A stretch of 64,000 nt of DNA from Patescibacteria group bacterium (GTDB lineage: Bacteria > Patescibacteriota > Minisyncoccia > Phycocordibacterales > UBA1006). Shown here piece by piece: positions 49,911-63,988 of the stretch; the stretch's first letter is position 1, and each line of letters begins with the position of its first letter. A model generated the notes under the pieces. It searched no databases. It worked only from the letters and a program-made list of their open reading frames with translations, and was not told where the DNA came from. A program made the position numbers and the translations under genes. Location of the stretch: NCBI GenBank assembly GCA_020428645.1, contig JAGQMN010000001.1, positions 532-64,531 of the forward strand, given 5' to 3'.

Positions 49911-49948
49911 GTGCGTAGTATAACAAGTCTTGCTATACTACGCACATG
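49908..49948. promoter_or_regulatory. Perfect 15-bp inverted repeat (CATGTGCGTAGTATA, 11 nt, TATACTACGCACATG) spanning both divergent start codons
   Basis: Read directly from the sequence. The whole 35-bp gap between the divergent cytidylyltransferase and PMM-like genes is the palindrome. Confidence 0.4.
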
Positions 49949-50710
49949 AAGAAGTACAACACGATCATTTTTGATTTGGATGGGACGTTGGCAGTGACTA
50001 AATCTCCTCTGACAGATGAAATGGGTCAATTAGTTGCTCAACTCACCCAAAAAATAAATGTGGTCATTATTACTGGTGGTCGTTTTGAACAGATTAAAAA
50101 ACAGGTTATTGATAGACTTGGTGAAAACGTTGTACGTTCAAATTTTTACGTACTCCCTACAACAGGATCAAGTATGGTTGCATATGATTCAAAAACAAAA
50201 GAATGGAATTACGTATATCGTCATGAATTAACTAACGAACAAAAAGAACGAATCATTAATGGAATTAAACAAGCTTTGGAACAAGCATCGTTTTCTATTA
50301 ATCCTGATGATGTTTTTGAAAATCAATTTGAAGATAGAGGTTCTCAAATTACATTTTCGGCTCTCGGTCAATATCAAAAACCGGAAATCAAGATTGTATG
50401 GGATCCTGAACAGAAAAAACGGCAGGAATTATTATCCTATATGAATCACTTAGAGGACGAGTTTGCGCTTAATTTAGGGGGTTCTACATCTATTGATGTA
50501 ACCTTAAAGGGAATTGATAAGGAATATGGAATTAATGAATTTTATAAAACAACAGCACTTCAAATTAAAGATGGTCTTTTTGTTGGTGATAAAATTTTTC
50601 CTGGTGGAAATGATTATCCAGCAATAAAAACAGGGATTGATTACCGTGAGACATCAGGTCCTGAAGAAACGATGGAAATTATCCACGAGGTACTTCAATC
50701 ATACGACTAA
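49946..50710 (+). CDS. HAD-IIB hydrolase, eukaryote-type phosphomannomutase (PMM)-like
   Basis: IIFDLDGTLA (DxDGT), VIITGGRFEQI and especially FVGDKIFPGGNDYPAI align with the PMM motifs LFDVDGTLT, GVVGGSD and FFGNETSPGGNDFEIF. Confidence 0.6.
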   Translation: MKKYNTIIFDLDGTLAVTKSPLTDEMGQLVAQLTQKINVVIITGGRFEQIKKQVIDRLGENVVRSNFYVLPTTGSSMVAYDSKTKEWNYVYRHELTNEQKERIINGIKQALEQASFSINPDDVFENQFEDRGSQITFSALGQYQKPEIKIVWDPEQKKRQELLSYMNHLEDEFALNLGGSTSIDVTLKGIDKEYGINEFYKTTALQIKDGLFVGDKIFPGGNDYPAIKTGIDYRETSGPEETMEIIHEVLQSYD

Positions 50711-50743
50711 GACGTGTTATTATAGAGGTATCTTGTAATTTTT

Positions 50744-51088
50744 ATGAAGGCATCGCACGTGACAAAAAAACCATGGGGAGAGTTCAGGCAGTTTACGCTC
50801 AATCAAGAGTCTACGGTAAAGACCCTATCTGTTAATCAGGGAGAAGAGCTTTCATTACAGACTCATACATCACGTGAAGAATATTGGTACGTACTCGATG
50901 GTCACCCACGAATAACACAAGGAAAAGATATCTTTGATGCAGAACCAGGTCGAGAATTTTTTATCGAGCAGGGTGAAAAACACCGTATCGCTGCACCAAT
51001 TGATGACGTTCGCATTCTAGAAATCGCCTATGGACACTTTGATGAAGATGACATCGTTCGGCTCGAAGATCGTTACGATAGATCTTAG
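50744..51088 (+). CDS. Cupin-domain protein, mannose-6-phosphate isomerase type II C-terminal-like
   Basis: KPWGEFRQF...SLQTHTSREEYWYVLDG...EKHRI fits the cupin_2 / PMI type II pattern. Confidence 0.55.
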   Translation: MKASHVTKKPWGEFRQFTLNQESTVKTLSVNQGEELSLQTHTSREEYWYVLDGHPRITQGKDIFDAEPGREFFIEQGEKHRIAAPIDDVRILEIAYGHFDEDDIVRLEDRYDRS

Positions 51089-51111
51089 CTAACAATTATA
51101 TATTTATTTAC

Positions 51112-53070
51112 ATGAAGCGTTTCCTTTCACAACTTATCGAGATATTGGTACAACCTCTTGTTCCTGCTTGGCAGAAAGAGGCGCCTTTGTCTCAGGAAGT
51201 TATTGGAACAGCACACTTCGATAATCAGCATTACTTTTTTGTTCGTGATGGCGACAAGGTTTTTCTCGTGAGTGATACAGATACCTATGTTTATCGACAG
51301 AATGTGTGTTTCTCTCGGATTATGACGAGGCACATTCCAAACATGTGTGACCTTGATGCGGTAACCTTACCAAACGGAGAGCATGCCATGGTGTGTACGG
51401 TCAAACTCAAGCGAGGGTACAAAACTGTGTATCTTACTTCACAAGACACTCGTCACTTTAAGGCGTGGTCAATGGTACGTAATCCAAACGGACATGCGAC
51501 AAAAATTATTGTTCATGCAGCTAATCAGATAGCACTTGTAACCTCAATTAATGGTGAGATTTGTTATCGCGATCTTGATGTACACAACCGAAATGTTGAA
51601 TACCACACAACACCGCTTGTACCACGACACGATTCGTTTGATCATAGTCCACTGCGTGTAGTTGGTGTATTTGATCTACCTGACGGGGTGTTTGTGCTCT
51701 ACGATACATCGTACGAAATGCGTGGGTTCGTGACTCACCGGTTTGGCGCGGCACTTCTTGCCCACGGAAACCTTGGTCACTGTCACTGGCGAGCGTACTT
51801 TGATGAGGTGCCATTCTGGGATTATTTTGTTTCTAAAAAAGAAAACGAACACCTCTCACTCTCTGCTATTAGTGCGTACCACCGTGGAGATACCATTCAT
51901 GTCTACTTTTATGACTGCCTGAACCGAGATGTGTATACGCTCGATCTTCACGAACCGTACTCACGTCGTGATCCACATCCCGACAAGGCAATCTTGCGAA
52001 AGTATGTACACAATCCAATTTTGAAACCAAATGAAGACCACGCCTGGGAATGTTACGCGACATTCAATCCAACCGCACTTCAGATTGGTAACACAACACA
52101 TCTCCTCTACCGGGCTGAAGGTTCAGCAGGTCTTTCGGTGATTGGCTATGGCTCCAGCTATAATGGGGTTACCTTTGATCGTTTACCTGATCCAATATAT
52201 GTTCCAACGATGGACTTCGAGGGAGTGAACTTGTCGCCTGACATGATACGATTATTGCGAAAACGTTCGACTAGTTTTAAATCCGGATATAACCACTATC
52301 CAACTGATTACCATGGATACCGTTGGCACGGTGTTGAGGATCCACGTATGACCGAGATGGAAGGTCGAATCTACATGATTTATTCCGCGTATAATGGCTA
52401 CCAGATGGCGCGACCTGCAATTACCTCAATTGATACAAACGATTTTCTGAATCACCGCTGGAACTGGGCGGTTCCACAGGTGATGACCGAACAGGCGTAT
52501 GCATGGGGGCAGGGGAATAAGAACGTCGTTCTTCACCCGGAAAAGGTAAATGGTAAGTATGTAATTTTCCACCGCATATGGCCACACATCCGGATCGATT
52601 ACGTTGATAATCTCGAATTTGGTCCTGGTAAAAAGTACCTCAAAGAGCTTGCACGCATCGAGGCTCGTGGGGATTCGTGGGATAGTAACCGCGTTGGTGT
52701 TTCTTCCGCTCCTATTTTGATTGATGAGGGGTGGCTGATGATTTACCAAGGATCGGGTTCGCAAGATCGTCGCTATAAAGTTGGTGCTATGATTCTCGAT
52801 CGATATGATCCATCAAAGGTACTGTACCGCAGTGGACAACCAATCCTTGCACCAACTGAATGGTACGAAAACGACAACAAATCCGGCGTTGCGTACCCTT
52901 GTGGAGCGGTTGTTCGAGATGGTACTCTGTACGTGTACTACGGAGCATCAGACAAGTACGTATCGGTAGCAACGGCACCTCTTCGTGAATTTATTGATAA
53001 GCTCAAACATGATGCGTACCAAAAACCAGAACTTACCAAAAGAATCGGTATCGACGACCTATGTATATAA
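51112..53070 (+). CDS. GH130-family glycoside hydrolase/phosphorylase domain protein with a ~290-aa N-terminal extension
   Basis: The C-terminal half carries NPILKPNEDHAWECYATFNPTA and GVEDPRMTEMEGRIYMIYSAYNG, the GH130 beta-mannoside-phosphorylase catalytic-Asp region. The N-terminal 290 aa are unassigned. Confidence 0.7.
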   Translation: MKRFLSQLIEILVQPLVPAWQKEAPLSQEVIGTAHFDNQHYFFVRDGDKVFLVSDTDTYVYRQNVCFSRIMTRHIPNMCDLDAVTLPNGEHAMVCTVKLKRGYKTVYLTSQDTRHFKAWSMVRNPNGHATKIIVHAANQIALVTSINGEICYRDLDVHNRNVEYHTTPLVPRHDSFDHSPLRVVGVFDLPDGVFVLYDTSYEMRGFVTHRFGAALLAHGNLGHCHWRAYFDEVPFWDYFVSKKENEHLSLSAISAYHRGDTIHVYFYDCLNRDVYTLDLHEPYSRRDPHPDKAILRKYVHNPILKPNEDHAWECYATFNPTALQIGNTTHLLYRAEGSAGLSVIGYGSSYNGVTFDRLPDPIYVPTMDFEGVNLSPDMIRLLRKRSTSFKSGYNHYPTDYHGYRWHGVEDPRMTEMEGRIYMIYSAYNGYQMARPAITSIDTNDFLNHRWNWAVPQVMTEQAYAWGQGNKNVVLHPEKVNGKYVIFHRIWPHIRIDYVDNLEFGPGKKYLKELARIEARGDSWDSNRVGVSSAPILIDEGWLMIYQGSGSQDRRYKVGAMILDRYDPSKVLYRSGQPILAPTEWYENDNKSGVAYPCGAVVRDGTLYVYYGASDKYVSVATAPLREFIDKLKHDAYQKPELTKRIGIDDLCI

Positions 53071-55007
53071 CCAGACGATCAGATCACAACCCGTTTATCA
53101 GACCGAACGAAGAAAAGCACTGGATGTCCTACGCAACCTTCAACTGGTCACCATGGCACGATGAAGAAACACATACTATTCATGCGTTATACCGTGCTAT
53201 GACGAAACCTGACCTCCTCGCATCAGGTCCGTCTTTTAGTGTGTCTTCAATTGGTTATACCTATAGTAACGATGAGGAACACTTCACTCACCACGAACAG
53301 TTTATTTTTTCAGAGGAAGAGTGGGAACGGTATGGGTGCGAAGATCCACGTGTGACGAAAATCGGTGATACCTACTACATTTTCTACACAGCACTCTCAA
53401 CCTATCCTTTTTCAGCTGAGGGTATTAAAGTTGCTGTTGCAACTACCAAGGATTTCAAAACGATTGACGAAAAAAAATTAGTAACTCCATTCAACGCAAA
53501 GGCGATGACACTCTTTCCAGAGAAAATAAATGGCAAATTTACTGCGCTCCTTACCGTTGATCCCGATAAACCACCGTCAAAGATTGCATTCATCCAGTTT
53601 GATTCTGAAGAACAAATCTGGGATCAGGGCTACTGGCATAATTGGTATGCGAACATCGACGACCATATCTTTGATCCACGAAAACGTGATGACGATCATT
53701 GTGAGATTGGTGCTGCACCGGTGTGGACTGATGAGGGATGGCTTCTTGTGTATTCACATATTCAGCACTATTTTAATGAATCTGAGCGAGTATTTGGTAT
53801 AGAAGCGCTGCTTCTCGACCACGATGACCCAAAAAAGATTCTTGGTAGGACAACTGGGCCCATCCTTGTCCCAGAGAAAACCTATGAAAAAGAAGGTCAG
53901 GTACACAACATTACGTTTCCATCAGGTGCGCTGCTTCATGGTGATCGTCTCGACATCTACTATGGTGGAGCAGATTCAGTATGTTGTATGGCAACTGTCA
54001 ATCTACACCATCTCTTGGACAGTATGAATATAGAGAAACGTAAAGAGCACATTGTTCGCTACGCCGGTAACCCAATTTTGGAGCCAATTCGTGAGAACGA
54101 ATGGGAAGCAAAACTGGTCTTCAATCCAACCACCGTCGATATCGGTGAAAAAACCTATATTGTGTACCGTGCTATGTCACAGGACAACACCTCGTACATG
54201 GGAGCTGCGGTGACTACCGATGGCTACACCATTGATGAACGTTTTTCTGAACCAATCTACGTTCCACGTATGGATTTCGAGATGAAGAAATCACATCCAA
54301 CAGGGAACTCTGGATGTGAGGACGGTCGTGCAACGGTCATCGGCGACACCCTCTACATGTTTTACACCGCGTACAATGGGGTGGATGCTCCCAGGGTTGC
54401 TTTTTCATCAATTTCATTGAACCATTTCGAGGCAAAGAACTGGAATGCATGGTCAGAACCACAGCTGGTAACGCCAGATGGAATAGATGACAAAGATGCC
54501 TGCCTCCTCGCTGAAAAAATTAGAGACGAGTACGCGATCTTTCACCGCATCAAACACCATGTGTGTTTTGACACGGTACCTGAACTCGATTTTTCAAAAC
54601 ATCGATTGAATAAGTGTATTCCATTAATTGGCCCACGAACTGGGATGTGGGACGGACTGAAGGTTGGTATTGCTGGTCCCCCTATTAAGACTGATGCAGG
54701 ATGGTTACTGTTGTACCACGCAGTATCAACTGATAAATACTATCGCGTTGGCGCGATGTTGATGGAGCTCGATAATCCAGGTAACATCATCGGACGTACG
54801 ACTGATTTCATTCTCGAACCCGAAGAACGGTGGGAACTTGAGGGTGAGATCAACAAAGTTGTCTTCCCGTGTGGTGCCTCGATTCGTGGTGATGAACTCT
54901 TTATCTACTACGGTGGAGCCGATACCGTGGTTGGGGTAGCAACGACAAAGCTCTCATGGCTACTTGACGTATTGACCTGGCAACGTGATTCAGACAATTG
55001 GTCGTAA
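53061..55007 (+). CDS. Tandem double GH130-domain protein
   Basis: Domain 1 has NPFIRPNEEKHWMSYATFN...GCEDPRVTKIGDTYYIFYTA. Domain 2 starts at about nt 54,033 with NPILEPIRENEWEAKLVFNPT...GCEDGRATVIGDTLYMFYTAYNG. The gene overlaps the upstream GH130 gene by 10 nt. Confidence 0.7.
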   Translation: MYITRRSDHNPFIRPNEEKHWMSYATFNWSPWHDEETHTIHALYRAMTKPDLLASGPSFSVSSIGYTYSNDEEHFTHHEQFIFSEEEWERYGCEDPRVTKIGDTYYIFYTALSTYPFSAEGIKVAVATTKDFKTIDEKKLVTPFNAKAMTLFPEKINGKFTALLTVDPDKPPSKIAFIQFDSEEQIWDQGYWHNWYANIDDHIFDPRKRDDDHCEIGAAPVWTDEGWLLVYSHIQHYFNESERVFGIEALLLDHDDPKKILGRTTGPILVPEKTYEKEGQVHNITFPSGALLHGDRLDIYYGGADSVCCMATVNLHHLLDSMNIEKRKEHIVRYAGNPILEPIRENEWEAKLVFNPTTVDIGEKTYIVYRAMSQDNTSYMGAAVTTDGYTIDERFSEPIYVPRMDFEMKKSHPTGNSGCEDGRATVIGDTLYMFYTAYNGVDAPRVAFSSISLNHFEAKNWNAWSEPQLVTPDGIDDKDACLLAEKIRDEYAIFHRIKHHVCFDTVPELDFSKHRLNKCIPLIGPRTGMWDGLKVGIAGPPIKTDAGWLLLYHAVSTDKYYRVGAMLMELDNPGNIIGRTTDFILEPEERWELEGEINKVVFPCGASIRGDELFIYYGGADTVVGVATTKLSWLLDVLTWQRDSDNWS

Positions 55008-55051: not shown

Positions 55052-55417
55052 ATGAAGATATTTGTAACACACTCTAGCGATATTAATGTACATGAAGATT
55101 TGTATCAACCAATCAGAGAATCAGAATTGAATAAAAAACACGACATTAAGTTACCACAAGAGTTTGGTAAAGAAACAATTACCAAAGAACTCATTCAATC
55201 TCAAGATTTTATTATTGCCGAATCCTCAATGCCTTCGACCGGTTCAGGTATTGAATTAGGTTGGGCTGATATGTACAACGTACCGATACTCAATGTATAT
55301 AAAAAGAATAGTAAATCTTCATCTTCACTACGGTACGTAACTGATAATCATATTGAATACATAGATAGCAAAGACATGGTTAATAAAATTACAGATTTTA
55401 TTGATAACCAAGTATGA
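55052..55417 (+). CDS. Nucleoside 2-deoxyribosyltransferase-like small Rossmann protein
   Basis: STGSGIELGWA resembles the GTxxExGxA motif of the nucleoside deoxyribosyltransferase-like family. Support is weak. Confidence 0.35.
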   Translation: MKIFVTHSSDINVHEDLYQPIRESELNKKHDIKLPQEFGKETITKELIQSQDFIIAESSMPSTGSGIELGWADMYNVPILNVYKKNSKSSSSLRYVTDNHIEYIDSKDMVNKITDFIDNQV

Positions 55418-56127
55418 GTAAAAAATTAATTGCTATACAAAAAACTCAACGAGCTGTTGAAATGGCGATGCAGGCAGTCATTGATTACCTAAAGACTCAC
55501 CCTACACCAACATCAGAACGAGCTCATGAAATCATTGATGAAGTGCTCACCGAACATGGTTGCGAATCACCTGAGAGGCACATTGTTACTTCTGGAATCC
55601 AGTCCCACGAACCACACGAAGAGGGAACAGGTTTGATCGAACAAGGGGTACCGATTGTGATTGATATTTACCCTCGATCCACAGAGTCGGGTTACTTTGC
55701 CGACATGACACGGACGGTGTGTATTGGAACATCACCATTTGAACTACAGCGTATGTACGGTACCGTGCTCGAAGCACAGAATATGGCGATCAGTATGCTT
55801 GCACCAGGTGTTCGTTGTAGTGATGTACATAATGTTGTTGCAGAATTTTTTATCAATCAAGGCTACGAAACCAACGGAAAGGGTAGCGAGTTCACCTATG
55901 CTGAGGGTTTTGTGCATGCGCTCGGTCACGGGGTATCTACAAAGATCCATGACAAACCAACACTTAGCCCAAAGAGTGAAGATATTTTACAAGAAGGCGA
56001 CGTAATCACCATTGAACCTGGGCTATATTACAAACACATTGGCGGTATCCGCATCGAGGATATGTTCGTGATTACCGAAACTGGTGTTGAACGAATCACC
56101 CAATTTCCTCACCTTTTTCAAATTTAA
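55414..56127 (+). CDS. M24-family metallopeptidase catalytic domain (Xaa-Pro / methionine aminopeptidase-like pita-bread fold)
   Basis: Metal-ligand pattern D (FADMTRT), H (HALGHG), E (ITIEPG), E (IRIEDM). Only the catalytic domain is present. Its start overlaps the upstream stop. Confidence 0.7.
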   Translation: MSKKLIAIQKTQRAVEMAMQAVIDYLKTHPTPTSERAHEIIDEVLTEHGCESPERHIVTSGIQSHEPHEEGTGLIEQGVPIVIDIYPRSTESGYFADMTRTVCIGTSPFELQRMYGTVLEAQNMAISMLAPGVRCSDVHNVVAEFFINQGYETNGKGSEFTYAEGFVHALGHGVSTKIHDKPTLSPKSEDILQEGDVITIEPGLYYKHIGGIRIEDMFVITETGVERITQFPHLFQI

Positions 56128-56158: not shown

Positions 56159-59100
56159 ATGAACTACATCAAAAAATTTCGTGAACTGACAAAAAAAGAC
56201 GCTGATATCGCAGGAGGAAAGGGTGCCTCCCTTGGAGAAATGCTCAATGCTGGAATTCCCGTTCCTGATGGATTTGTGGTGACTGCCGATACTTTTGATT
56301 TCTTTCTTGCTGAAACTGATCTCGTTCAGGAAATTGGTGCTATTTTGAAAAAAGTGGATACCCAGGCAATTCACACTGTTGATGATGCATCTGAACAAAT
56401 TCAAAATCTGATTCGCAGTGCACAGATGCCTGAATCTGTGGCTTCTGAAATCCTCAAAGATTTTGATGAACTTGATACGGCTTACGTTGCAGTTCGTTCT
56501 TCGGCAACTGCCGAAGACGGTGCTGATCATGCATGGGCAGGGCAACTTGATTCGTACCTCAACACAACGAAAGATATGCTCCTCGAAAAAGTTCAGTCGT
56601 GTTGGGCATCACTGTTTACTCCACGGGCGATCTTTTACCGGTTTGAAAAAGGTCTTCACACCACTCACATCTCTGTTGCGGTGGTAATCCAGAAAATGGT
56701 GAACTCTGAAAAATCAGGGATTGCTTTTTCAGTGCATCCAGTGACTGAAGATTACAATCAGATGATTATCGAGGCAGGTCTTGGACTCGGCGAGGCTATT
56801 GTTTCTGGTTCGGTTACCCCCGATTCCTACGTAGTTACCAAAGACCCACAGGAAATTATCGATAGCAACGTTAATACTCAAACCAAGGCACTGTACCGTA
56901 CTGCCACAAAGGGTGACCACGGTTTCAACGAATGGAGAGAACTATCTGAAACCGAAGCTAATCAGCAGGTACTTGATAACACACAGATCATCGAGTTAGC
57001 AAACATTATTGAACGTATCGAAAATCACTACGGATTCCCATGTGATATTGAATGGGCGTATGAAAACAATACCTTCTTTATTGTCCAATCTCGACCAATT
57101 ACAACGCTATCGAATAAAACGGTAGACCTAAAAAAAAACGATAGTGTAGCAAAACTTACCTTTGAACGAGAGTATACACGGGATTTTTCAATAATTCTCG
57201 AAGATTTTTGGCATCACGGATTAATGAGTTGTTATCGTGATATTCTTCAATCTGAACCTCTACATGAAACCCCCCTCGTTACATATATACATGATGGTGT
57301 TGTTGAAACATGGCAAAATCGTCCATTCATCAATGATCTAAAGAAAAAAATTCTTGAACGTAATATTGCTGATCCATCTTTTCTTAATCCTATTATGGCG
57401 GACTATCGTGTTTTACTTGATACCTTTAAACAGTATCGGGCACAGAAAAAATTTGCACAATCACACAAAGATATTAAAGAACTCTTGGCGCAGTTTAAAG
57501 AGGGAATTCGTCTATGGATTCCGTGGGGGCATGCAGCCTATGTAGAAGAAACACCAAAAGATATTTGGGATAAAACTATGGCGCTTCGTGATATTGATAC
57601 ATTTTGGGATGATGCTGATTACGTATTACGGAAGAGTATTATTAATGTTTACCCGGAGCTTGAAGGGTGTGAGAATACTATCCTTGCGGAAGAGCTGTTA
57701 ACCGGTTCTGACAGCTTTGACAATAACCAGTACACAAAACGTCTCTCTGGGTATGTTCATATTCCTGGTCGGTCACACTGGTTTGGTGACTTAGCAAGCG
57801 CTGAAGAAAAGTACAGAGATCTACAATTTAACTACCCGACGAATGAGATTGTAAACAATGGTTTCAAAGGCGAAATCGCATATGCTGGTAATCAAGAAGT
57901 CATTACTGGTAAGGTTCGTATTATCAAGAGAAAAGACCAAGTACGTACATTACAAGATGGTGAGGTATTAGTCTCGCCAATGACAACACCCGACTTTGAA
58001 CCAGCAATGAAGCGTGCGGTAATCACTATTACCGATGAAGGTGGGATCACTTGTCATGCGGCAGTTGTTGCCAGAGAGATGAAGTTACCATGTATTACTG
58101 GAACCCGAATTGCTACTAGTTTTTTGAATGATGATGACACCGTTTCAGTAAATACAAAAACAGGAGTTGTGACTCGTATTGCATCTAAATTTCCTAATGG
58201 CGAATGTTTTAAAAACATGTCGACTCCAGATGCATGGAACTACACAGGGAAGTGGATTCAAAATCCACTATGTTCAAGTTTTTGGGCTGCGTATCACCAA
58301 ACTGATATTGTTCAGAAAATTTATCCTGATCGAGAATTTGGTATTGAGTTCAGCGTTGATGGTCACTGGCGAGAGAACCTTGTTGATATCACATATATGA
58401 AATCAGAAATCATCAGAAGATATCAAGATGGTAGTCTAGATAAATTTGTTCAAAATTTCGATTCGGTAGGTAATGAGATTCAAAATGTACTCTTAAAAGA
58501 GATTAATGAAATTAGTATTAATACATTACCACTTCAAGAGATCTTTGCTTGCTATCAAGATTTGTTCACTTATTGGGGTTTTCTAACATTCTTAGGTGAC
58601 TTAACCATGCCAGTTGCAAACGAGGTAAATCTTGTTTCCTCTGATGGTGAATTTTTCGAGATGACTCATCCTCATCTTCGTCTAACCTGGATTGAATATG
58701 AAGAAGAAAAAACACGTGAAATCGCTCAAGAAGTAATTAATTTAGGTGCAGGTGTTTGTAATATCGAACTCATAAAGAAAAATAAAACTATTTCAAAGCT
58801 TGTCAAAGAATATTTTGAAAATTTTGCGTGGGTTGGTGTTAACAAATGGGAAGGAGAGGGAATGAACGATGAGAAATTAGTTGAACGAGTAAATCAGGCA
58901 ATTGAAAACATTAAAGAAGGAAACTTTTTTGAATCTCGTTCTCCTAATGAATCTATTTTTAAAGAACTTAATCCACTCGTGCAACTTGGTGTATCTACTG
59001 CGTATTGGCGTGCGACCTGTGCTAGTTTAGCAGCTCGCTTTGAGTATCTGATACAAGAGCGAATGAGTAAGTTGGCAAAGAAACATAAGATTACTTACAA

Positions 59101-62100
59101 TGATATTATTTATCTTAGTAAGCACGAGGTTCTTATCCTTGAAAATGAGGGAACCTTACTTGTTCCAGTAAAAGATATACAAGAACGTAAAGAAGGTTTT
59201 GCGTGTTTTGTTGATGTTGAAGGTACACTCAATGTCGTGTCAGGTAATAATAGGGTGTATCAAAAACTCAAAAAGCTCTATGGTAGTGCACCAAAGTTAG
59301 AGTTTAATAAAAGTTTTATTGAGGGAATGCCAGCATGCAAAGGTTTTGCTGAAGGGCGAGTTACAATTGTTTCCAGTAAAGATGATTTCCATAAGTTTCA
59401 AAAAGGGAATATTCTAGTCTCCGAAGAAACAACACCTGCTTTCGTACCTTTAATGAGACAAGCGTCAGCAATTGTAACTGATCGTGGAGGTATCACCTCG
59501 CATGCTGCTATTGTTTCTAGGGAACTTGGTAAACCTTGCATTATTGCTACTAAAAACGCTACTCAAATTTTAAAAGATGGAGATTTGGTTGAGGTGGATG
59601 CTGATAACGGAATTGTGCGTATCATCGAAACATCCCAAAAAAAAACTCAAAATGAGGTAGAACAAGATATTGTTGATAAGGTTGCTAAACAAAAATATCA
59701 TTATATTCACAAACGTTATCGCACTCCATTCTATATGGAACTCATGTGGAAAGGCGCAAGTGTTTCTTGTAAAGATTCAAAAATCCCTTTTGATTATTTA
59801 GTTGAGGGTCTTTATCTTGATACAGAGATTGGGTTTGAAGATAGGGATTGGAATAATGCTAAAAAGATTACTTGGGAATTTACACATCAAAATCCTAAAT
59901 TGTTTTTAAAGATGATTGAAGATGCGTACTCAATCCAAACATCTATTCGTAAATCAATAAAAAAAATTACTCAAGATATTGACAAGGTTAATAAACAAGA
60001 TGTCGTTAGGTTTTGGCAAGAATATGCAAGACGTATGCACGCATTTGGACAGTATCTTCTTCCTCCGTTATTTATCGAATCGATTCTAGAGGAACGTATA
60101 CAAAAAGCAATTACACAAGTATTATCAAAACATGATTTCAATGAAGTGTTTCGGATTTTAACAACCCCTATGAAATTAGGAACTGCTGTTTTAGAAGAAC
60201 TGTCAATTCTTGATATTGCAATTGCAGAAAAGAATAAAAAACCCGTAGATGGTTTAATAGAAAAACATTTAGAAGATTTTGGTTGGACGAAAAATAATTC
60301 TCATGATGGGAAATTTAATACCATCAATGATATTGAAGACAGTGTTCAAAAAGTTTTGAGTGAAAGCGATCCATCAATTTTAAAACAACACATTGAAGAA
60401 GATATTGCTCACACCAAAGAGAAATTTGATTCATATTTCTCCATGTTTGACAAAGAGACGCAAAGTCTCATTGAAATATTACAAGAATCTATTTATTATC
60501 GTAGCTGGCGTACTGAACGTTACTATAAAAATGCATATTATTTAGATTCACTATTCCGTAAAACCGCAGAGATTTTAAACATGCAAATGTATTCTGATAT
60601 TTTCTTTTTAACGATTGATGAAATAATTTCACTACTCAAGGGCAAGAGTTTTGATTTCAAAGATCTTATACAAAATCGCAAATTAGGTTATGCAGTTTAT
60701 GCTACTGAAACAGGCACACACGTTTTTCAAGGCGAGGATGTATTGAAAATGAAAGAATCTGTAAAATTTTTTGATGAATCCCAACAGACAGATGTCATTA
60801 TCGGACAACAAGCATATCCAGGTGTCGTATCGGGCAGAGCCCGTGTTATTTTGGACAAGAAAAACTTGGATAGAGTTCAAGAAGGAGATATTCTTATTAC
60901 TCCAGCCACAACAGTTGATTATGTTCCTACATTAAAAAAAGTGAAAGCCATTGTAACCGATGAGGGTGGTGTACTTTGCCATGCGTCTGTTATTTCGCGG
61001 GAATTACGCATACCGTGTATCATTGGTACGAAAAATGGTTCCAAGATTATTCAAGATAATAGTGTAGTTGAAGTTGATGCCAATACAGGAACAGTACATA
61101 TTCTTGACAAAGAGCAAAAAGAAAATACGCACATAAATTTTGACCTCAACCAAGAACCGTTGGTGTGGGGTCCTGTTGGCATGAACTCTATACTATCGTT
61201 TACTACTTGGGTACCTGGCTTATACAATGGTTTTTCAAAACAATTTCCAGGATATTCGTGGCCGAAACTACTCGCACTGTTTAAGGAATATTTCTTTGCA
61301 TGGATTCACGAGTTGCAAGATATTGAAAAACATGGAGCTGATGTTTTTGTGGATCTCATGATGAATCCAAAGGTACGAGAACAAGCACGCAGTGAATGGG
61401 AACAATCAAAGGACCGTTTACGTGATGTTGAAGAGATACTTGAACAGCACAATCTTACTCAGCTTAGTGGTGACGAGTACTTGAACCTATGGCGCCAAAT
61501 GGAAACAGCCATTACAGATTTTTGGGTGTGGTCGAGTTTGCCTGAACTTGCTAACTATGGATCAATCAATGTTTTGAAAGAGCGCTTAAAAAACAACGTA
61601 CCTAAAGACAATATAATGTCGGTATTAGAAATACTCACCGCACCCGAAGATATTTCGTTTTTTCAACAAGAGGAAATTGACCTTGCACGGACTCATGATC
61701 TTGAGGCACATCAGCAGAACTACTTTTGGTTAAACAACAGCTACGCACACATTGAGGTTACACCTGTTTCATTTTTTGAAAAACGAAAAGCAGTGTTATC
61801 ACCAAGCATTGAAACTGAAATAGCCGAACGCATGGCGTCAGTCAAAGAAGCTAAACAGAATGTCCAAAAACAATATAATCTCTCGGACGAAATTATGGAG
61901 ATGGCGTACCGTATTACTGATGGAATTATTTGGCAGGATAAACGAAAGAAAGAGGTATGGGTATATCTCCACTACGAGGAGCAAATGTTCCATGAAGCGG
62001 CACGACGAACCAATACAGATGTACAAGACGTAAAGTTACTTCTTTTTGAAGAATTTGAGCCTTTTATTAAGGGTGAGATTAATATCGATGATATTAAAAA

Positions 62101-63988
62101 CCGGACTGATGGTTTCCTGGTATACATTGATGAACACCAAAACATGAAAACTTATGGTTCTAATATTGCGAACTACTACTGGAATCACTACTTTCCTTCG
62201 GAAAAAGATCTCAGTATTACCTCTTTGAAAGGTACTGTTGCGAGTAAAGCCGAATCCGGCAATGTACAAGGTAGTGTAAGAATTATTCTCGATGCGACAA
62301 AGTGCAAAGATTTTTGTCCTGGTGATGTTTTAGTGACTACGATGACAACACCCGAATTTGTATTTCTTATGAAACAAGCGTCAGCGATTGTGACTGACAC
62401 TGGAGGATTGACCTCACACGCTGCGATTGTTGCGCGTGAGCTTGGTAAACCATGTATTATCAATACGAAATCAGCGACCCGTGCGCTAGAAGATGGTGAC
62501 TTGATTGAAGTTAATACTGATGTAGGTGAGGTTACTATTATAGAACGATCGAATACCTCACATTCGCTCCCCATTAATCCACATGACTACAAATTTATTG
62601 GGCTTTGGAAGGAAGATTTGTTTCCAGCATACTTTTGGGCTCGGTGGTTTGATGTAAAGAAAAATAATAAACTTGGATTTACAGAAATCACTAATAGTGG
62701 AGCACTTATTTTGAAAGGTGGGAACTTTTTTTGGAGTCATCAAATGCGAGATCAAATGAAAGCACTCCTTGATCGAGTTGTTGAAACAAAAGATACCTCA
62801 CTGTTTAAGAATTTATACAAACAAGCTAATAAATGTTTTAGGGACACAATGAAAAAGGCCGACACATTGGCAAAAGAAGAACCAGATACTGAAAATTTTG
62901 AAACATTCATTCAATTAGGTCGTGACCTCATGTATTATTGGACCTTTGGCGCTTCAATGGCAGAGTTTGTTGATGAGTATATTATCGAGCATGCATCCAG
63001 AGAACATATTAAACCTTCTGATGTAGTTGGGTATGTAGACATACCAGAGACTGAACTTATGCGTCAGCAGTCGGCACTTCGTGAATTTCATCAGGAATTT
63101 AAAAAACGAGGTTGGCTTGATAGAATCGATGGTGATCGAGAATCACTTATTCATGATATTCAACAAGATAAGAAACTCTACAAAAAATTAGAGAAACATA
63201 TGTATGAGTATGGCTGGATTGAAATGTTGAACTATGTTGGTGACGTTATAACCTTTGATAGATTCCTTACCATTATTGGAGGTGTTGGAGAAGAGCAGAA
63301 ACCCCAAGAAAAGAAAAAAGTTTCAGATACATTTAATTTTATTCTTAATATCGCTTCCTACATTGGTTACGCACGTCAAGCTGGAGCGGAGTATTCTTCA
63401 GTGTTTTCCTATAAACTACATGACTACTTAAAAGCTACAGCAGAAAAAATAAATGTATCTTACTCAGAAATGTTAAACCTGACACCGGAAGAAATTATAC
63501 TTGCACTCTCAAATAACTTAGATCCACAGCCACTACTACAACGACGAGCAAATAGAAATTGGTTAGTGTGGTGGGACAAACATCAACATGCACAGGTTGT
63601 AGATGATTCAGATATTATCAATAAATTGTACGAGAAAATGGTTCCTATTATAGAGGATGATCAACGTCAACTTGTTGGTCAAACTGGTAATAAGGGTAAG
63701 GTTGTTGGAAAAGTGAGTGTAATTATGGCCACCGAGGATTTTGGAGCATTCAAAGAGGGTAACATTTTAGTCACTACTATGACGACACCAGATTTCGTAG
63801 TCTTAATGCAAAAAGCATCGGCAATCGTGACTGATATCGGAGGTTTACTGTCCCATGCATCAATTGTCTCACGCGAACTTGGTAAACCTTGTGTTATTGG
63901 TACAAAATTTGCTACTCAAATACTCAAAGATGGTGATATGGTTGAAGTTGATGCGGATAACGGAGTTGTTAAGATTCTAGAAAAATAA
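56159..63988 (+). CDS. Giant PEP-synthase/rifampin-phosphotransferase-like protein (2609 aa): one N-terminal PPDK_N-type ATP-binding domain plus five tandem phosphohistidine swivel modules
   Basis: N-terminus DIAGGKGASLGEMLNAGIPVPDGFVVT...AVRSSATAEDG is the PPDK_N/PEP-synthase nucleotide-binding domain (about aa 1-315). There are five copies of the mobile-domain motif GG(I/L/V)(T/L)(S/C)HA(A/S)(I/V)V(S/A)RE(L/M)...P, with His codons at 58055, 59501, 60980, 62417 and 63854, each preceded by a ~390-aa spacer domain. There are no internal stops and no PEP/pyruvate TIM-barrel motifs. Confidence 0.75.
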   Translation: MNYIKKFRELTKKDADIAGGKGASLGEMLNAGIPVPDGFVVTADTFDFFLAETDLVQEIGAILKKVDTQAIHTVDDASEQIQNLIRSAQMPESVASEILKDFDELDTAYVAVRSSATAEDGADHAWAGQLDSYLNTTKDMLLEKVQSCWASLFTPRAIFYRFEKGLHTTHISVAVVIQKMVNSEKSGIAFSVHPVTEDYNQMIIEAGLGLGEAIVSGSVTPDSYVVTKDPQEIIDSNVNTQTKALYRTATKGDHGFNEWRELSETEANQQVLDNTQIIELANIIERIENHYGFPCDIEWAYENNTFFIVQSRPITTLSNKTVDLKKNDSVAKLTFEREYTRDFSIILEDFWHHGLMSCYRDILQSEPLHETPLVTYIHDGVVETWQNRPFINDLKKKILERNIADPSFLNPIMADYRVLLDTFKQYRAQKKFAQSHKDIKELLAQFKEGIRLWIPWGHAAYVEETPKDIWDKTMALRDIDTFWDDADYVLRKSIINVYPELEGCENTILAEELLTGSDSFDNNQYTKRLSGYVHIPGRSHWFGDLASAEEKYRDLQFNYPTNEIVNNGFKGEIAYAGNQEVITGKVRIIKRKDQVRTLQDGEVLVSPMTTPDFEPAMKRAVITITDEGGITCHAAVVAREMKLPCITGTRIATSFLNDDDTVSVNTKTGVVTRIASKFPNGECFKNMSTPDAWNYTGKWIQNPLCSSFWAAYHQTDIVQKIYPDREFGIEFSVDGHWRENLVDITYMKSEIIRRYQDGSLDKFVQNFDSVGNEIQNVLLKEINEISINTLPLQEIFACYQDLFTYWGFLTFLGDLTMPVANEVNLVSSDGEFFEMTHPHLRLTWIEYEEEKTREIAQEVINLGAGVCNIELIKKNKTISKLVKEYFENFAWVGVNKWEGEGMNDEKLVERVNQAIENIKEGNFFESRSPNESIFKELNPLVQLGVSTAYWRATCASLAARFEYLIQERMSKLAKKHKITYNDIIYLSKHEVLILENEGTLLVPVKDIQERKEGFACFVDVEGTLNVVSGNNRVYQKLKKLYGSAPKLEFNKSFIEGMPACKGFAEGRVTIVSSKDDFHKFQKGNILVSEETTPAFVPLMRQASAIVTDRGGITSHAAIVSRELGKPCIIATKNATQILKDGDLVEVDADNGIVRIIETSQKKTQNEVEQDIVDKVAKQKYHYIHKRYRTPFYMELMWKGASVSCKDSKIPFDYLVEGLYLDTEIGFEDRDWNNAKKITWEFTHQNPKLFLKMIEDAYSIQTSIRKSIKKITQDIDKVNKQDVVRFWQEYARRMHAFGQYLLPPLFIESILEERIQKAITQVLSKHDFNEVFRILTTPMKLGTAVLEELSILDIAIAEKNKKPVDGLIEKHLEDFGWTKNNSHDGKFNTINDIEDSVQKVLSESDPSILKQHIEEDIAHTKEKFDSYFSMFDKETQSLIEILQESIYYRSWRTERYYKNAYYLDSLFRKTAEILNMQMYSDIFFLTIDEIISLLKGKSFDFKDLIQNRKLGYAVYATETGTHVFQGEDVLKMKESVKFFDESQQTDVIIGQQAYPGVVSGRARVILDKKNLDRVQEGDILITPATTVDYVPTLKKVKAIVTDEGGVLCHASVISRELRIPCIIGTKNGSKIIQDNSVVEVDANTGTVHILDKEQKENTHINFDLNQEPLVWGPVGMNSILSFTTWVPGLYNGFSKQFPGYSWPKLLALFKEYFFAWIHELQDIEKHGADVFVDLMMNPKVREQARSEWEQSKDRLRDVEEILEQHNLTQLSGDEYLNLWRQMETAITDFWVWSSLPELANYGSINVLKERLKNNVPKDNIMSVLEILTAPEDISFFQQEEIDLARTHDLEAHQQNYFWLNNSYAHIEVTPVSFFEKRKAVLSPSIETEIAERMASVKEAKQNVQKQYNLSDEIMEMAYRITDGIIWQDKRKKEVWVYLHYEEQMFHEAARRTNTDVQDVKLLLFEEFEPFIKGEINIDDIKNRTDGFLVYIDEHQNMKTYGSNIANYYWNHYFPSEKDLSITSLKGTVASKAESGNVQGSVRIILDATKCKDFCPGDVLVTTMTTPEFVFLMKQASAIVTDTGGLTSHAAIVARELGKPCIINTKSATRALEDGDLIEVNTDVGEVTIIERSNTSHSLPINPHDYKFIGLWKEDLFPAYFWARWFDVKKNNKLGFTEITNSGALILKGGNFFWSHQMRDQMKALLDRVVETKDTSLFKNLYKQANKCFRDTMKKADTLAKEEPDTENFETFIQLGRDLMYYWTFGASMAEFVDEYIIEHASREHIKPSDVVGYVDIPETELMRQQSALREFHQEFKKRGWLDRIDGDRESLIHDIQQDKKLYKKLEKHMYEYGWIEMLNYVGDVITFDRFLTIIGGVGEEQKPQEKKKVSDTFNFILNIASYIGYARQAGAEYSSVFSYKLHDYLKATAEKINVSYSEMLNLTPEEIILALSNNLDPQPLLQRRANRNWLVWWDKHQHAQVVDDSDIINKLYEKMVPIIEDDQRQLVGQTGNKGKVVGKVSVIMATEDFGAFKEGNILVTTMTTPDFVVLMQKASAIVTDIGGLLSHASIVSRELGKPCVIGTKFATQILKDGDMVEVDADNGVVKILEK

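What the first reader, a model, noticed from the sequence alone, without database searches (positions are those of the whole stretch)
57100..63600. No PEP/pyruvate TIM-barrel domain anywhere, and the inter-swivel spacers are divergent repeats of one W/Y/F-rich domain
I looked for the C-terminal PEP-utilizing TIM-barrel motifs (GxNDLxQ, catalytic Cys region) and found none in any spacer. So this is not a canonical PEP synthase or PPDK despite its N-terminus. Each spacer instead opens with a Trp/aromatic-rich segment (WNYTGKWIQNPLCSSFWAAY, FYMELMWKGAS, VWGPVGMNSILSFTTWVPGLYNGF, GLWKEDLFPAYFWARWF) and has a similar length. That pattern suggests five diverged copies of one acceptor-binding domain, each paired with its own swivel His.
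Basis: partly seen in the sequence, partly recalled or inferred. Interest (0 to 1): 0.6.

Follow-up and report, generated by a model that had tools for sequence, protein, structure and literature searches.

The report
Five-module rifampin-phosphotransferase-like dikinase fusion
A 2609-residue protein of an ultra-small (Patescibacteria) bacterium joins one ATP-binding domain to five different "substrate-binding domain plus phosphate-carrying histidine" modules, apparently a whole operon of small-molecule kinases fused into one chain, of a type I found described in no paper.

Summary
ORF 56159-63988 (+) has one PPDK_N ATP-grasp domain and five PEP-utilizers swivel domains, each with its catalytic His. 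It has no PEP/pyruvate TIM barrel.

All five spacers are homologous. Sp2-Sp5 (about 410 aa) match one profile over its full length. Sp1 (273 aa) is the same domain without a central helical insert of about 135 aa.

AlphaFold models of unit 3 and of residues 1-680 both find only Listeria rifampin phosphotransferase (RPH) as a whole-unit match in the PDB. So each spacer is an RPH "RIF-binding-domain"-like acceptor domain.

The modules are not recent duplicates. Each is closer to modules in other genomes than to its siblings.

In related Patescibacteria/CPR genomes the same parts are separate genes: one stand-alone ATP-grasp gene beside 2-8 module genes. Partial fusions also occur.

Most likely mechanism (inferred): one ATP-grasp domain charges five swivel histidines, and each passes phosphate to a different small molecule. 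The substrates are unknown.

This is a new multi-module variant of the RPH / PpsAB / HpeHI dikinase family.

The parts
56159..63988 (+). Complete ORF, 2609 aa plus stop codon: one ATP-grasp domain followed by five [acceptor domain + swivel] modules (architecture G-H-H-H-H-H)
   Evidence: The protein ends 43 aa after the last His, as its homologues do.
56159..57130 (+). ATP-grasp nucleotide-binding domain (PPDK_N), aa 1-324. K21 and R113 correspond to RPH K22 and R117. Ser stands at the position of RPH T136.
   Evidence: Pfam E 3.5e-98. Alignment to RPH 5fbs and to PEP synthase 8a8e. Foldseek TMt 0.91 to the RPH ATP domain 5hv6. 66% mean identity to 12 homologues.
57131..57949 (+). Spacer 1 (aa 325-597, 273 aa): short-class RIF-binding-domain-like acceptor domain, lacking the central helical insert
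   Evidence: Short profile E 3.1e-37; long profile matches it in two pieces. hhalign of the long and short profiles. Model of aa 1-680 matches RPH, E 4e-36.
57950..58165 (+). Swivel phosphohistidine domain 1 (aa 598-669; His633, GGITCHAAVVARE)
58166..59395 (+). Spacer 2 (aa 670-1079, 410 aa): long-class acceptor domain. Its subfamily keeps W.xGrWiqpPl and tAYWRA.
   Evidence: Long profile E 1.6e-53. Stand-alone orthologue L022:4178-5674, 38% identity, E 2e-95. Subfamily conservation.
59396..59611 (+). Swivel domain 2 (aa 1080-1151; His1115)
59612..60874 (+). Spacer 3 (aa 1152-1572, 421 aa): long-class acceptor domain; the one that was modelled
   Evidence: Long profile E 4.8e-74. NCBIfam RPH/PRK06241 positions about 650-788. 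AlphaFold pLDDT 87.5 and Foldseek match to RPH.
60875..61090 (+). Swivel domain 3 (aa 1573-1644; His1608)
61091..62311 (+). Spacer 4 (aa 1645-2051, 407 aa): long-class acceptor domain
   Evidence: Long profile E 3.2e-58. Stand-alone orthologue L008:12939-14375, 36% identity, E 7e-81.
62312..62527 (+). Swivel domain 4 (aa 2052-2123; His2087)
62528..63748 (+). Spacer 5 (aa 2124-2530, 407 aa): long-class acceptor domain. Its subfamily keeps GLWK..FW and gYxrQxgaEY.
   Evidence: Long profile E 3e-54. Subfamily of 12 members, usually at position 1 in other proteins.
63749..63985 (+). Swivel domain 5 and C-terminus (aa 2531-2609; His2566)

Best explanation
The ORF is a fully fused, multi-module member of the rifampin-phosphotransferase-type small-molecule dikinases.

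Shown:
- It has one ATP-grasp domain.
- It has five modules, each made of an RPH RIF-binding-domain-like domain followed by a phosphohistidine swivel domain with an intact His.
- It has no pyruvate/PEP barrel.
- In related genomes the same ATP-grasp unit and modules are separate neighbouring genes.

Inferred mechanism:
- The single ATP-grasp domain transfers the beta-phosphate of ATP to the His of any of the five swivel domains, releasing AMP and Pi.
- Each charged swivel swings back onto the acceptor domain just upstream of it, as in RPH.
- There it phosphorylates a hydroxyl group of a small molecule specific to that module.

The protein would therefore be five different kinases sharing one ATP-using engine. 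Charging of distal modules needs no fixed geometry, because in the two-component homologues (PpsAB, CreHI, HpeHI) a separate ATP-grasp protein charges the acceptor+swivel protein in trans.

The substrates are unknown. Scavenging (trapping) of host-derived compounds, or inactivation of antibiotics or phenolics, are the most plausible roles for an episymbiotic Patescibacteria cell.
For: Architecture.

Spacer homology.

Link to RPH:
- NCBIfam RPH/PRK06241 positions 650-788 match Sp3.
- The spacer-only profile hits only RPH in the PDB.
- The unit profile aligns RPH 440-865, placing RPH's catalytic R666-E667-x-x-K670 on the module motif l-R-D-e-R-K.
- Foldseek on the models of unit 3 and of aa 1-680 puts RPH first. 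HpeI (9goj) also matches the ATP-grasp part.

Autonomy of the modules:
- The exhaustive search finds 4120 cluster representatives. Of the top 146, 106 are stand-alone one-module proteins without an ATP-grasp domain.
- Tandem arrays of separate module genes exist.
- 10 of 21 related loci have a stand-alone ATP-grasp gene of 311-366 aa, and eight of these lie next to 1-8 module genes on the same strand. Other loci are partly fused: GH+5H, GHH+4H, H+GHHH+2H.
- 115 of the 120 best homologues have exactly one ATP-grasp motif, with 2-9 modules.

Different specificities:
- Each window module is 28-35% identical (E 1e-58 to 1e-87) to modules elsewhere, but only about 20% identical to its siblings.
- 385 modules fall into 117 clusters.
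- Subfamily-specific motifs are conserved, including the variants at the catalytic-helix position.

Conservation pattern: the parts that must recognise each other are conserved (ATP-grasp 66%, swivel 49%), while the acceptor domain is not (17%).

Trans-charging, the essential His and the scavenging idea are documented for HpeHI (PMC12167813). The RPH mechanism is in PMC4844700.
Against: - No biochemical data exist, and no substrate can be named.
- The RPH residues Arg666/Glu667/Lys670 are only partly kept. The window modules read R-A-A, R-S-T, Q-D-K and R-Q-A, and across 158 long modules each position is conserved in only about 55%. The chemistry may therefore differ between modules.
- Nothing shows that one ATP-grasp domain can physically reach or recognise all five swivels.
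- Swivel 1 and swivel 3 are noticeably more diverged than swivels 2, 4 and 5 (42-54% against 68-76% identity).
- Arrays L022 and L023 have no ATP-grasp gene within the fetched flanks.
- The gene neighbourhood gives no functional clue and is not conserved.
Confidence: 0.6

Rival explanations
1. It is a canonical PEP synthase or pyruvate phosphate dikinase with extra repeats, acting on pyruvate/PEP.
For: The NCBIfam PEP-synthase models give the highest summed scores (PRK06464 887 bits, TIGR01418 830 bits). The ATP-grasp and swivel sequences are closest to true PEP synthases (8a8e, E 6e-91). Public annotations call homologues 'phosphoenolpyruvate synthase'.
Against: No PEP-utilizers_C TIM barrel is found anywhere. 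[quoted passage not shown] The spacers have the RPH RIF-binding-domain fold.
Confidence: 0.02
2. Only one or a few modules are catalytic. The others are degenerate copies that serve as scaffold, regulators or phosphate reservoirs.
For: The RPH catalytic triad is incomplete in every window module. Swivels 3 and 5 lack the Thr two residues before the His (motif described in PMC12167813).
Against: All five His motifs are intact. Each module has full-length orthologues at 28-38% identity, including stand-alone genes. Subfamily-specific motifs are conserved, which indicates selection on each module. The triad is variable across the whole family, not only here.
Confidence: 0.1
3. The modules activate substrates by phosphorylation for a following condensation, as PigC/RedH do in prodiginine synthesis. 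The protein would then be a modular biosynthetic machine rather than a set of kinases.
For: NCBIfam PigC and RedH models match about as well as RPH models (541-552 bits against 592). The modular, shuffled architecture recalls assembly-line enzymes.
Against: The scores are far below the PigC/RedH cut-offs of 1300-1350. No biosynthetic genes lie nearby in the window or in the related loci. The module order is not conserved between genomes, which argues against an ordered assembly line.
Confidence: 0.08
4. The modules are ligand sensors or phosphorelay elements that act on proteins or on gene expression, not metabolic kinases.
For: One stand-alone module in L022 (10470-12158) carries an N-terminal Cro/C1 helix-turn-helix domain. 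Swivel domains do pass phosphate to proteins in the PTS enzyme I (knowledge of the family).
Against: This is a single case. The window protein has no DNA-binding or receiver domain. The closest structural relatives with known function are all small-molecule dikinases (PMC12167813).
Confidence: 0.07
5. The enzyme runs in reverse. It would take phosphate from several energy-rich phospho-compounds obtained from the host and make ATP from AMP and Pi, as PPDK and archaeal PEP synthase can do.
For: The family's reactions are reversible in PPDK and in some PEP synthases (established knowledge). HpeH alone catalyses phosphotransfer between aryl phosphates (PMC12167813). The organism belongs to an energy-poor, scavenging group.
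Against: It is pure inference. Most phosphate esters are too low in energy to drive it. RPH and the two-component enzymes work in the ATP-consuming direction.
Confidence: 0.04

Closest known systems
Rifampin phosphotransferase (RPH, e.g. Listeria RPH-Lm, PDB 5HV1/5FBT; PMC4844700)
   Same: The domain order is the same: ATP-grasp, then a large mostly helical acceptor-binding domain, then a C-terminal swivel His domain. The acceptor domain has the same fold (Foldseek E 8e-17, TMq 0.6 for unit 3; E 4e-36 for aa 1-680). The sequence profile aligns RPH 440-865, including the catalytic helix.
   Different: There are five acceptor+swivel modules per ATP-grasp domain instead of one. Sp1 lacks a central helical part of the domain; by the sequence alignment this is roughly RPH residues 485-660, which include the 'arm 2' subdomain. 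The Arg666/Glu667/Lys670 triad is only partly kept. The score is far below the NCBIfam RPH cut-off (592 against 999). The ATP-grasp and swivel sequences are closer to PEP synthase. Nothing indicates that rifamycins are substrates.
Two-component phenolic dikinases: phenylphosphate synthase PpsAB, CreHI, HpeHI (PMC12167813)
   Same: These systems have an acceptor-domain+swivel protein charged in trans by a separate ATP-grasp protein. Related CPR loci have exactly this split: a stand-alone ATP-grasp gene of 311-366 aa next to module genes of 350-520 aa. HpeI (9GOJ) is a structural match to the window's ATP-grasp domain.
   Different: The known systems pair one ATP-grasp protein with one acceptor protein. 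Here one ATP-grasp unit accompanies 2-8 different modules, and in the window all are fused. The modules do not match the N-terminal parts of the NCBIfam PRK08296 models. No aromatic-catabolism genes lie nearby.
PEP synthase / pyruvate phosphate dikinase
   Same: They share homologous ATP-grasp and swivel His domains and, presumably, the same first half-reaction (ATP to His~P, AMP, Pi).
   Different: There is no PEP/pyruvate TIM barrel. The swivel follows the acceptor domain instead of preceding it. The acceptor domain has an unrelated fold.
Prodiginine-condensing enzymes PigC/RedH/HapC and flavonoid/other RPH-like 'PRK06241' proteins
   Same: They have the same three-domain plan as RPH and give comparable partial profile scores.
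   Different: They are single-module proteins. The scores here are far below their family cut-offs. No related pathway genes are present.

Membership tests
PEP synthase / PPDK (canonical) | N-terminal PPDK_N ATP-grasp nucleotide-binding domain | tested here: met
   PF01326, aa 16-324, E 3.5e-98
PEP synthase / PPDK (canonical) | Phosphohistidine swivel domain with catalytic His | tested here: met
   Five PF00391 domains, His in each
PEP synthase / PPDK (canonical) | C-terminal PEP/pyruvate-binding TIM barrel (PEP-utilizers_C) | tested here: not met
   No PF02896 at E<=1 in the whole protein or at E<=10 in the spacers
RPH-type small-molecule dikinases | Order ATP-grasp, then acceptor-binding domain, then C-terminal swivel His | tested here: met
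   aa 1-680 reproduce it. Foldseek top hits are RPH, E 4e-36
RPH-type small-molecule dikinases | Acceptor domain with the RIF-binding-domain fold | tested here: met
   Unit 3 model, pLDDT 87.5. The six best PDB hits are all RPH (TMq 0.54-0.60 for wild-type entries); the next hits cover the swivel only. Profile alignment to RPH 440-865
RPH-type small-molecule dikinases | Catalytic helix residues Arg666 / Glu667 / Lys670 of the acceptor domain | tested here: inconclusive
   The aligned positions read R-A-A, R-S-T, Q-D-K and R-Q-A in Sp2-Sp5. The family consensus is R-D-x-R-K in about 55% of modules. The variants are conserved within subfamilies
RPH-type small-molecule dikinases | One acceptor domain and one swivel per ATP-grasp domain | tested here: not met
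   Five modules per ATP-grasp domain
RPH (rifamycin-inactivating equivalog) | NCBIfam NF041857 / NF000283 score above the curated cut-off | tested here: not met
   592 against 999 bits, and 411 against 1700 bits
RPH (rifamycin-inactivating equivalog) | Phosphorylation of rifamycins | not testable with these tools
   Needs an enzyme assay
Two-component dikinases (PpsAB / CreHI / HpeHI) | ATP-grasp and acceptor+swivel parts on separate polypeptides | tested here: not met
   They are fused in the window. The feature is met in related loci L008 and L011-L019
Glucan water dikinase | Carbohydrate-binding modules, with the ATP-grasp domain at the C-terminus | tested here: not met
   Pfam finds no CBM. 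The ATP-grasp domain is N-terminal. No GWD appears among the Foldseek hits
PigC / RedH prodiginine ligases | NCBIfam equivalog score above the cut-off | tested here: not met
   541 and 552 bits against 1300 and 1350

The most novel reading that the evidence does not exclude
Patescibacteria (CPR) and DPANN archaea carry a so far undescribed 'one engine, many heads' phosphorylation system. A single conserved ATP-grasp unit would serve a large, combinatorially shuffled library of acceptor-specific modules. At least 117 sequence clusters were seen among 385 modules, and the modules occur as gene arrays or as fusions of up to nine. The system would let these host-dependent cells trap or neutralise a wide range of host-derived small molecules. 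The window protein would be its fully fused form.
Probability: 0.45. Interest if true: 0.75.

Novelty: new variant of a known kind. Interest (0 to 1): 0.62.

Why it matters
RPH-type dikinases are known as one-substrate enzymes for antibiotic resistance, phenol catabolism and prodiginine synthesis. An arrangement in which one ATP-grasp domain feeds several different acceptor modules has not been described in the papers I could search.

If correct, it matters in four ways:
- It shows that the swivel mechanism can be multiplexed.
- It gives a testable function to a large, mis-annotated protein family. Members are labelled 'phosphoenolpyruvate synthase' or 'PEP-utilizing enzyme'. [quoted passage not shown]
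- It points to a broad capacity for small-molecule phosphorylation in organisms thought to have minimal metabolism.
- It warns against counting these genes as gluconeogenic PEP synthases or as rifampin-resistance genes in metagenome surveys.

Tried and rejected
- Pairwise BLASTP gave nothing significant for Sp1. Only profiles revealed its homology.
- Pfam and NCBIfam scans of the isolated spacers gave no family, apart from the RPH/PRK06241 tail match of Sp3.
- PADLOC gave no hit, so this is not a known defence system.
- Synteny was tested and rejected. The upstream genes of the window (two GH130, a PMM-like HAD, an M24 peptidase) are absent from 21 related loci, so a link to mannoside metabolism is not supported.
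- An assembly artefact was rejected. Only the swivel-coding stretches repeat at DNA level, at 63-74% identity.
- Neither the full-length product nor its last 414 aa is on record in the contig index, so the source contig could not be fetched.
- Four literature searches for this architecture in CPR/DPANN or among dikinases found nothing relevant. One CPR resistome paper only counts 'rph' hits.
- Two 633-aa ORFs in the window looked like a possible duplication. They are unrelated; one is DnaK-like.
Full report
**What is there.**
The finding lies inside one uninterrupted ORF, 56159-63988 on the + strand, of 2609 codons.
- Pfam finds one PPDK_N ATP-grasp domain (aa 16-324, E 3.5e-98) and five PEP-utilizers 'mobile' domains. 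It finds no PEP-utilizers_C TIM barrel at E<=1.
- The isolated spacers give no Pfam family even at E<=10.
- Each swivel keeps the catalytic histidine in the motif GG..[SC]HA..(V/I).RE, at aa 633, 1115, 1608, 2087 and 2566.
- The protein ends 43 residues after the last His, as its homologues do, so it is complete.
- At DNA level only the swivel-coding stretches resemble each other, at 63-74% over 205 nt. The repeats are therefore old and not an assembly artefact.
- The ATP-grasp domain aligns over its full length with RPH and PEP synthases. It keeps the Lys and Arg that correspond to RPH Lys22 and Arg117, and has Ser at the position of Thr136.

**Are the spacers one domain?**
I set the spacers as Sp1 aa 325-597 (273 aa), Sp2 670-1079, Sp3 1152-1572, Sp4 1645-2051 and Sp5 2124-2530 (407-421 aa).
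- BLASTP shows collinear similarity of 19-24% identity among Sp2-Sp5 over their C-terminal halves. It shows nothing significant for Sp1.
- A search with the whole protein returned 336 homologues. All of the 120 listed are giant proteins of 1446-4275 aa with one PPDK_N and several swivels. Those that carry names are from Parcubacteria, Patescibacteria, Woesearchaeota, Nanoarchaeota and unnamed archaea.
- In these proteins the His-to-His spacing is bimodal. Short spacers are about 270 aa and long spacers about 410 aa.
- Profiles built from those modules, without any window sequence, match Sp2-Sp5 end to end (E 1.6e-53 to 4.8e-74) and Sp1 end to end with the short profile (E 3.1e-37). The long profile also matches Sp1 in two pieces that flank a missing centre.
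- hhalign of the long against the short profile gives 99.8% probability, E 2.5e-28, with one gap of about 135 columns.
- All five spacers are therefore homologous. Sp1 is the short form.
- Aromatic content is moderately raised: 11.6-12.1% W+Y+F against 8.4% in the other window proteins, and 17-19% in the first 70 residues of Sp2, Sp4 and Sp5.

**What the domain is.**
- Sp3 matches positions about 650-788 of the NCBIfam RPH and PRK06241 models.
- A profile of the four long window spacers hits only Listeria RPH in the PDB.
- A 23-sequence profile of whole units aligns RPH residues 440-865.
- An AlphaFold model of unit 3 (aa 1152-1655; pLDDT 87.5, pTM 0.83) has RPH entries as its six best Foldseek matches in the PDB (E 8e-17 to 2.3e-14, about 560 aligned columns). 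TMq is 0.54-0.60 for the wild-type entries and 0.42 for the two G527Y mutant entries. All further matches cover only the swivel, at TMq about 0.2.
- A model of aa 1-680 (pLDDT 85.4) again has RPH first (E 4e-36), followed by HpeI and the isolated RPH ATP domain (TMt 0.91).
[quoted passage not shown] The swivel His825 shuttles phosphate between the two sites, and Arg666, Glu667 and Lys670 hold the phosphate at the acceptor site (PMC4844700).
- In the profile alignment these three residues fall on the module motif l-R-D-e-R-K.
- The motif is only moderately conserved: R 87/158, D or E 87/158, K 87/158. The window modules read R-A-A, R-S-T, Q-D-K and R-Q-A.
- These variants are conserved inside orthologous subfamilies: 'tAYWRA' in ten Sp2-type modules and 'gYxRQxgaEY' in twelve Sp5-type modules. 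The aromatic N-terminal motifs 'W.xGrWiqpPl' and 'GLWK..FW' are conserved in the same way.

**Origin of the repeats.**
- Each window module is much closer to modules of other proteins (28-35% identity over the full length, E 1e-58 to 1e-87) than to its siblings (about 20%, E about 1e-5).
- The orthologous types sit at different positions in different proteins.
- 385 modules from 121 proteins fall into 117 clusters.
- The protein was therefore assembled from old, distinct module types. It was not made by local duplication.

**The unfused system.**
- An exhaustive profile search of 1.84 billion representatives found 4120 proteins (1803 at E<=1e-10). Of the top 146, 106 are stand-alone modules of about 470-490 aa without an ATP-grasp domain, and 16 are two-module proteins without one.
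- Two such proteins lie in arrays of seven or eight consecutive module genes carrying eight modules each.
- Among 21 related loci from species-representative genomes, nearly all are labelled as Patescibacteria lineages, one is a DPANN archaeon and one is a 'Chlamydiae' MAG.
- Ten of these loci have a stand-alone ATP-grasp gene of 311-366 aa. Eight of these lie next to one to eight module genes on the same strand. Others are partly fused (GH+5H, GHH+4H, H+GHHH+2H). The window is GHHHHH.
- Stand-alone orthologues of window modules exist. Sp2 matches L022:4178-5674 (38% identity, E 2e-95) and Sp4 matches L008:12939-14375 (36%, E 7e-81).
- 115 of the 120 best homologues have exactly one ATP-grasp motif.
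- Across 12 homologues the ATP-grasp domain is 66% identical to the window, the swivel 49% and Sp1 17%. The partners that must recognise each other are conserved; the acceptor domains are free to diverge.

**Mechanism.**
- Shown: the architecture, the homology and fold of the modules, the intact His residues, and the genomic association of one ATP-grasp unit with many modules.
- Inferred: the ATP-grasp domain charges each swivel His from ATP, releasing AMP and Pi. Each swivel then delivers phosphate to a small molecule bound by its own upstream domain.
- Trans-charging by a separate ATP-grasp protein, the essential His, and phosphotransfer by the acceptor component alone are documented for HpeHI, and the same split occurs in PpsAB and CreHI. 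The authors suggest that low-Km dikinases trap diffusible substrates (PMC12167813).
- By analogy, a Patescibacteria cell may use the module set to trap or neutralise various host-derived compounds. That last step is speculation.

**Rivals.**
- A canonical PEP synthase or PPDK is excluded by the missing barrel.
- Degenerate, non-catalytic modules are unlikely, given the intact His motifs and the conserved orthologues.
- A PigC-like condensation role, a sensor or relay role (one HTH-fused module in L022) and reverse operation cannot be excluded, but each has little support.

**Comparison and novelty.**
- The protein works like RPH and like the two-component phenolic dikinases. It is not a member of the RPH equivalog (592 against 999 bits), nor of the PEP synthases.
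- Its defining difference is multiplicity: one ATP-grasp domain for five different acceptor modules.
- Searches of the paper library found no description of this architecture. A CPR resistome survey merely counts 'rph' hits.
- I rate it a new variant of a known kind.

**Source.**
The last 414 residues are identical to GenBank MCA9351833.1, 'hypothetical protein KC866_00365 [Patescibacteria group bacterium]'. The full-length product is not in the protein collections searched.

Noticed in passing
window 62744-63988: GenBank protein MCA9351833.1 ('hypothetical protein KC866_00365', Patescibacteria group bacterium, 414 aa) is 100% identical to aa 2196-2609 of the ORF. The public record thus annotates only the tail, from an internal Met. 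The 2609-aa product is absent from the protein and contig indexes.
   Followed up: partly
window 49946-55007: Directly upstream lie a phosphomannomutase-like HAD gene and two tandem GH130 (beta-1,4-mannooligosaccharide phosphorylase family) genes of about 650 aa, each with a long N-terminal extension. An M24 peptidase gene follows at 55414-56127. None of these neighbours recurs in the related loci.
   Followed up: partly
L022:10470-12158: A stand-alone module (563 aa) carries an N-terminal Cro/C1-type helix-turn-helix domain (HTH_26, E 6e-13) in front of the acceptor domain and swivel. This hints that some modules act in regulation.
   Followed up: no
L022:5686-6633: A 315-aa gene inside the array of eight module genes has a weak, sub-threshold match to the histidine phosphatase superfamily (His_Phos_1, E 8.6e-4).
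   Followed up: no
L023:3899-7456: A MacAB-like efflux set (HlyD-type membrane fusion protein, ABC ATPase, MacB_PCD/FtsX permease) lies directly upstream of an array of seven module genes carrying eight modules. No ATP-grasp gene was found within the fetched 19 kb.
   Followed up: partly
L009:9992-13729: In a DPANN archaeon (Candidatus ainarchaeum MAG), the ATP-grasp domain is followed by four short-class spacer domains with no swivel between them. A swivel starts only where the contig ends. This variant may have several acceptor domains sharing one swivel.
   Followed up: no
L008:16538-17896: One module gene in this array has a scrambled, Arg-rich C-terminus where the swivel should be, then returns to a normal swivel end. 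It is probably a frameshift, either a pseudogene or a sequencing error.
   Followed up: no
L020:9980-15057: A MAG labelled Chlamydiae carries two tandem single-module genes of about 830 aa (ATP-grasp + long module + swivel) instead of one ATP-grasp unit with many modules. The taxonomic label may be a binning error.
   Followed up: no
window 56159-57130 and the five swivel segments: By sequence, the ATP-grasp and swivel domains are closer to true PEP synthases (PDB 8a8e, E 6e-91) than to RPH (E 6e-73), although the acceptor domains are RPH-like. This explains the 'phosphoenolpyruvate synthase' labels in databases.
   Followed up: partly
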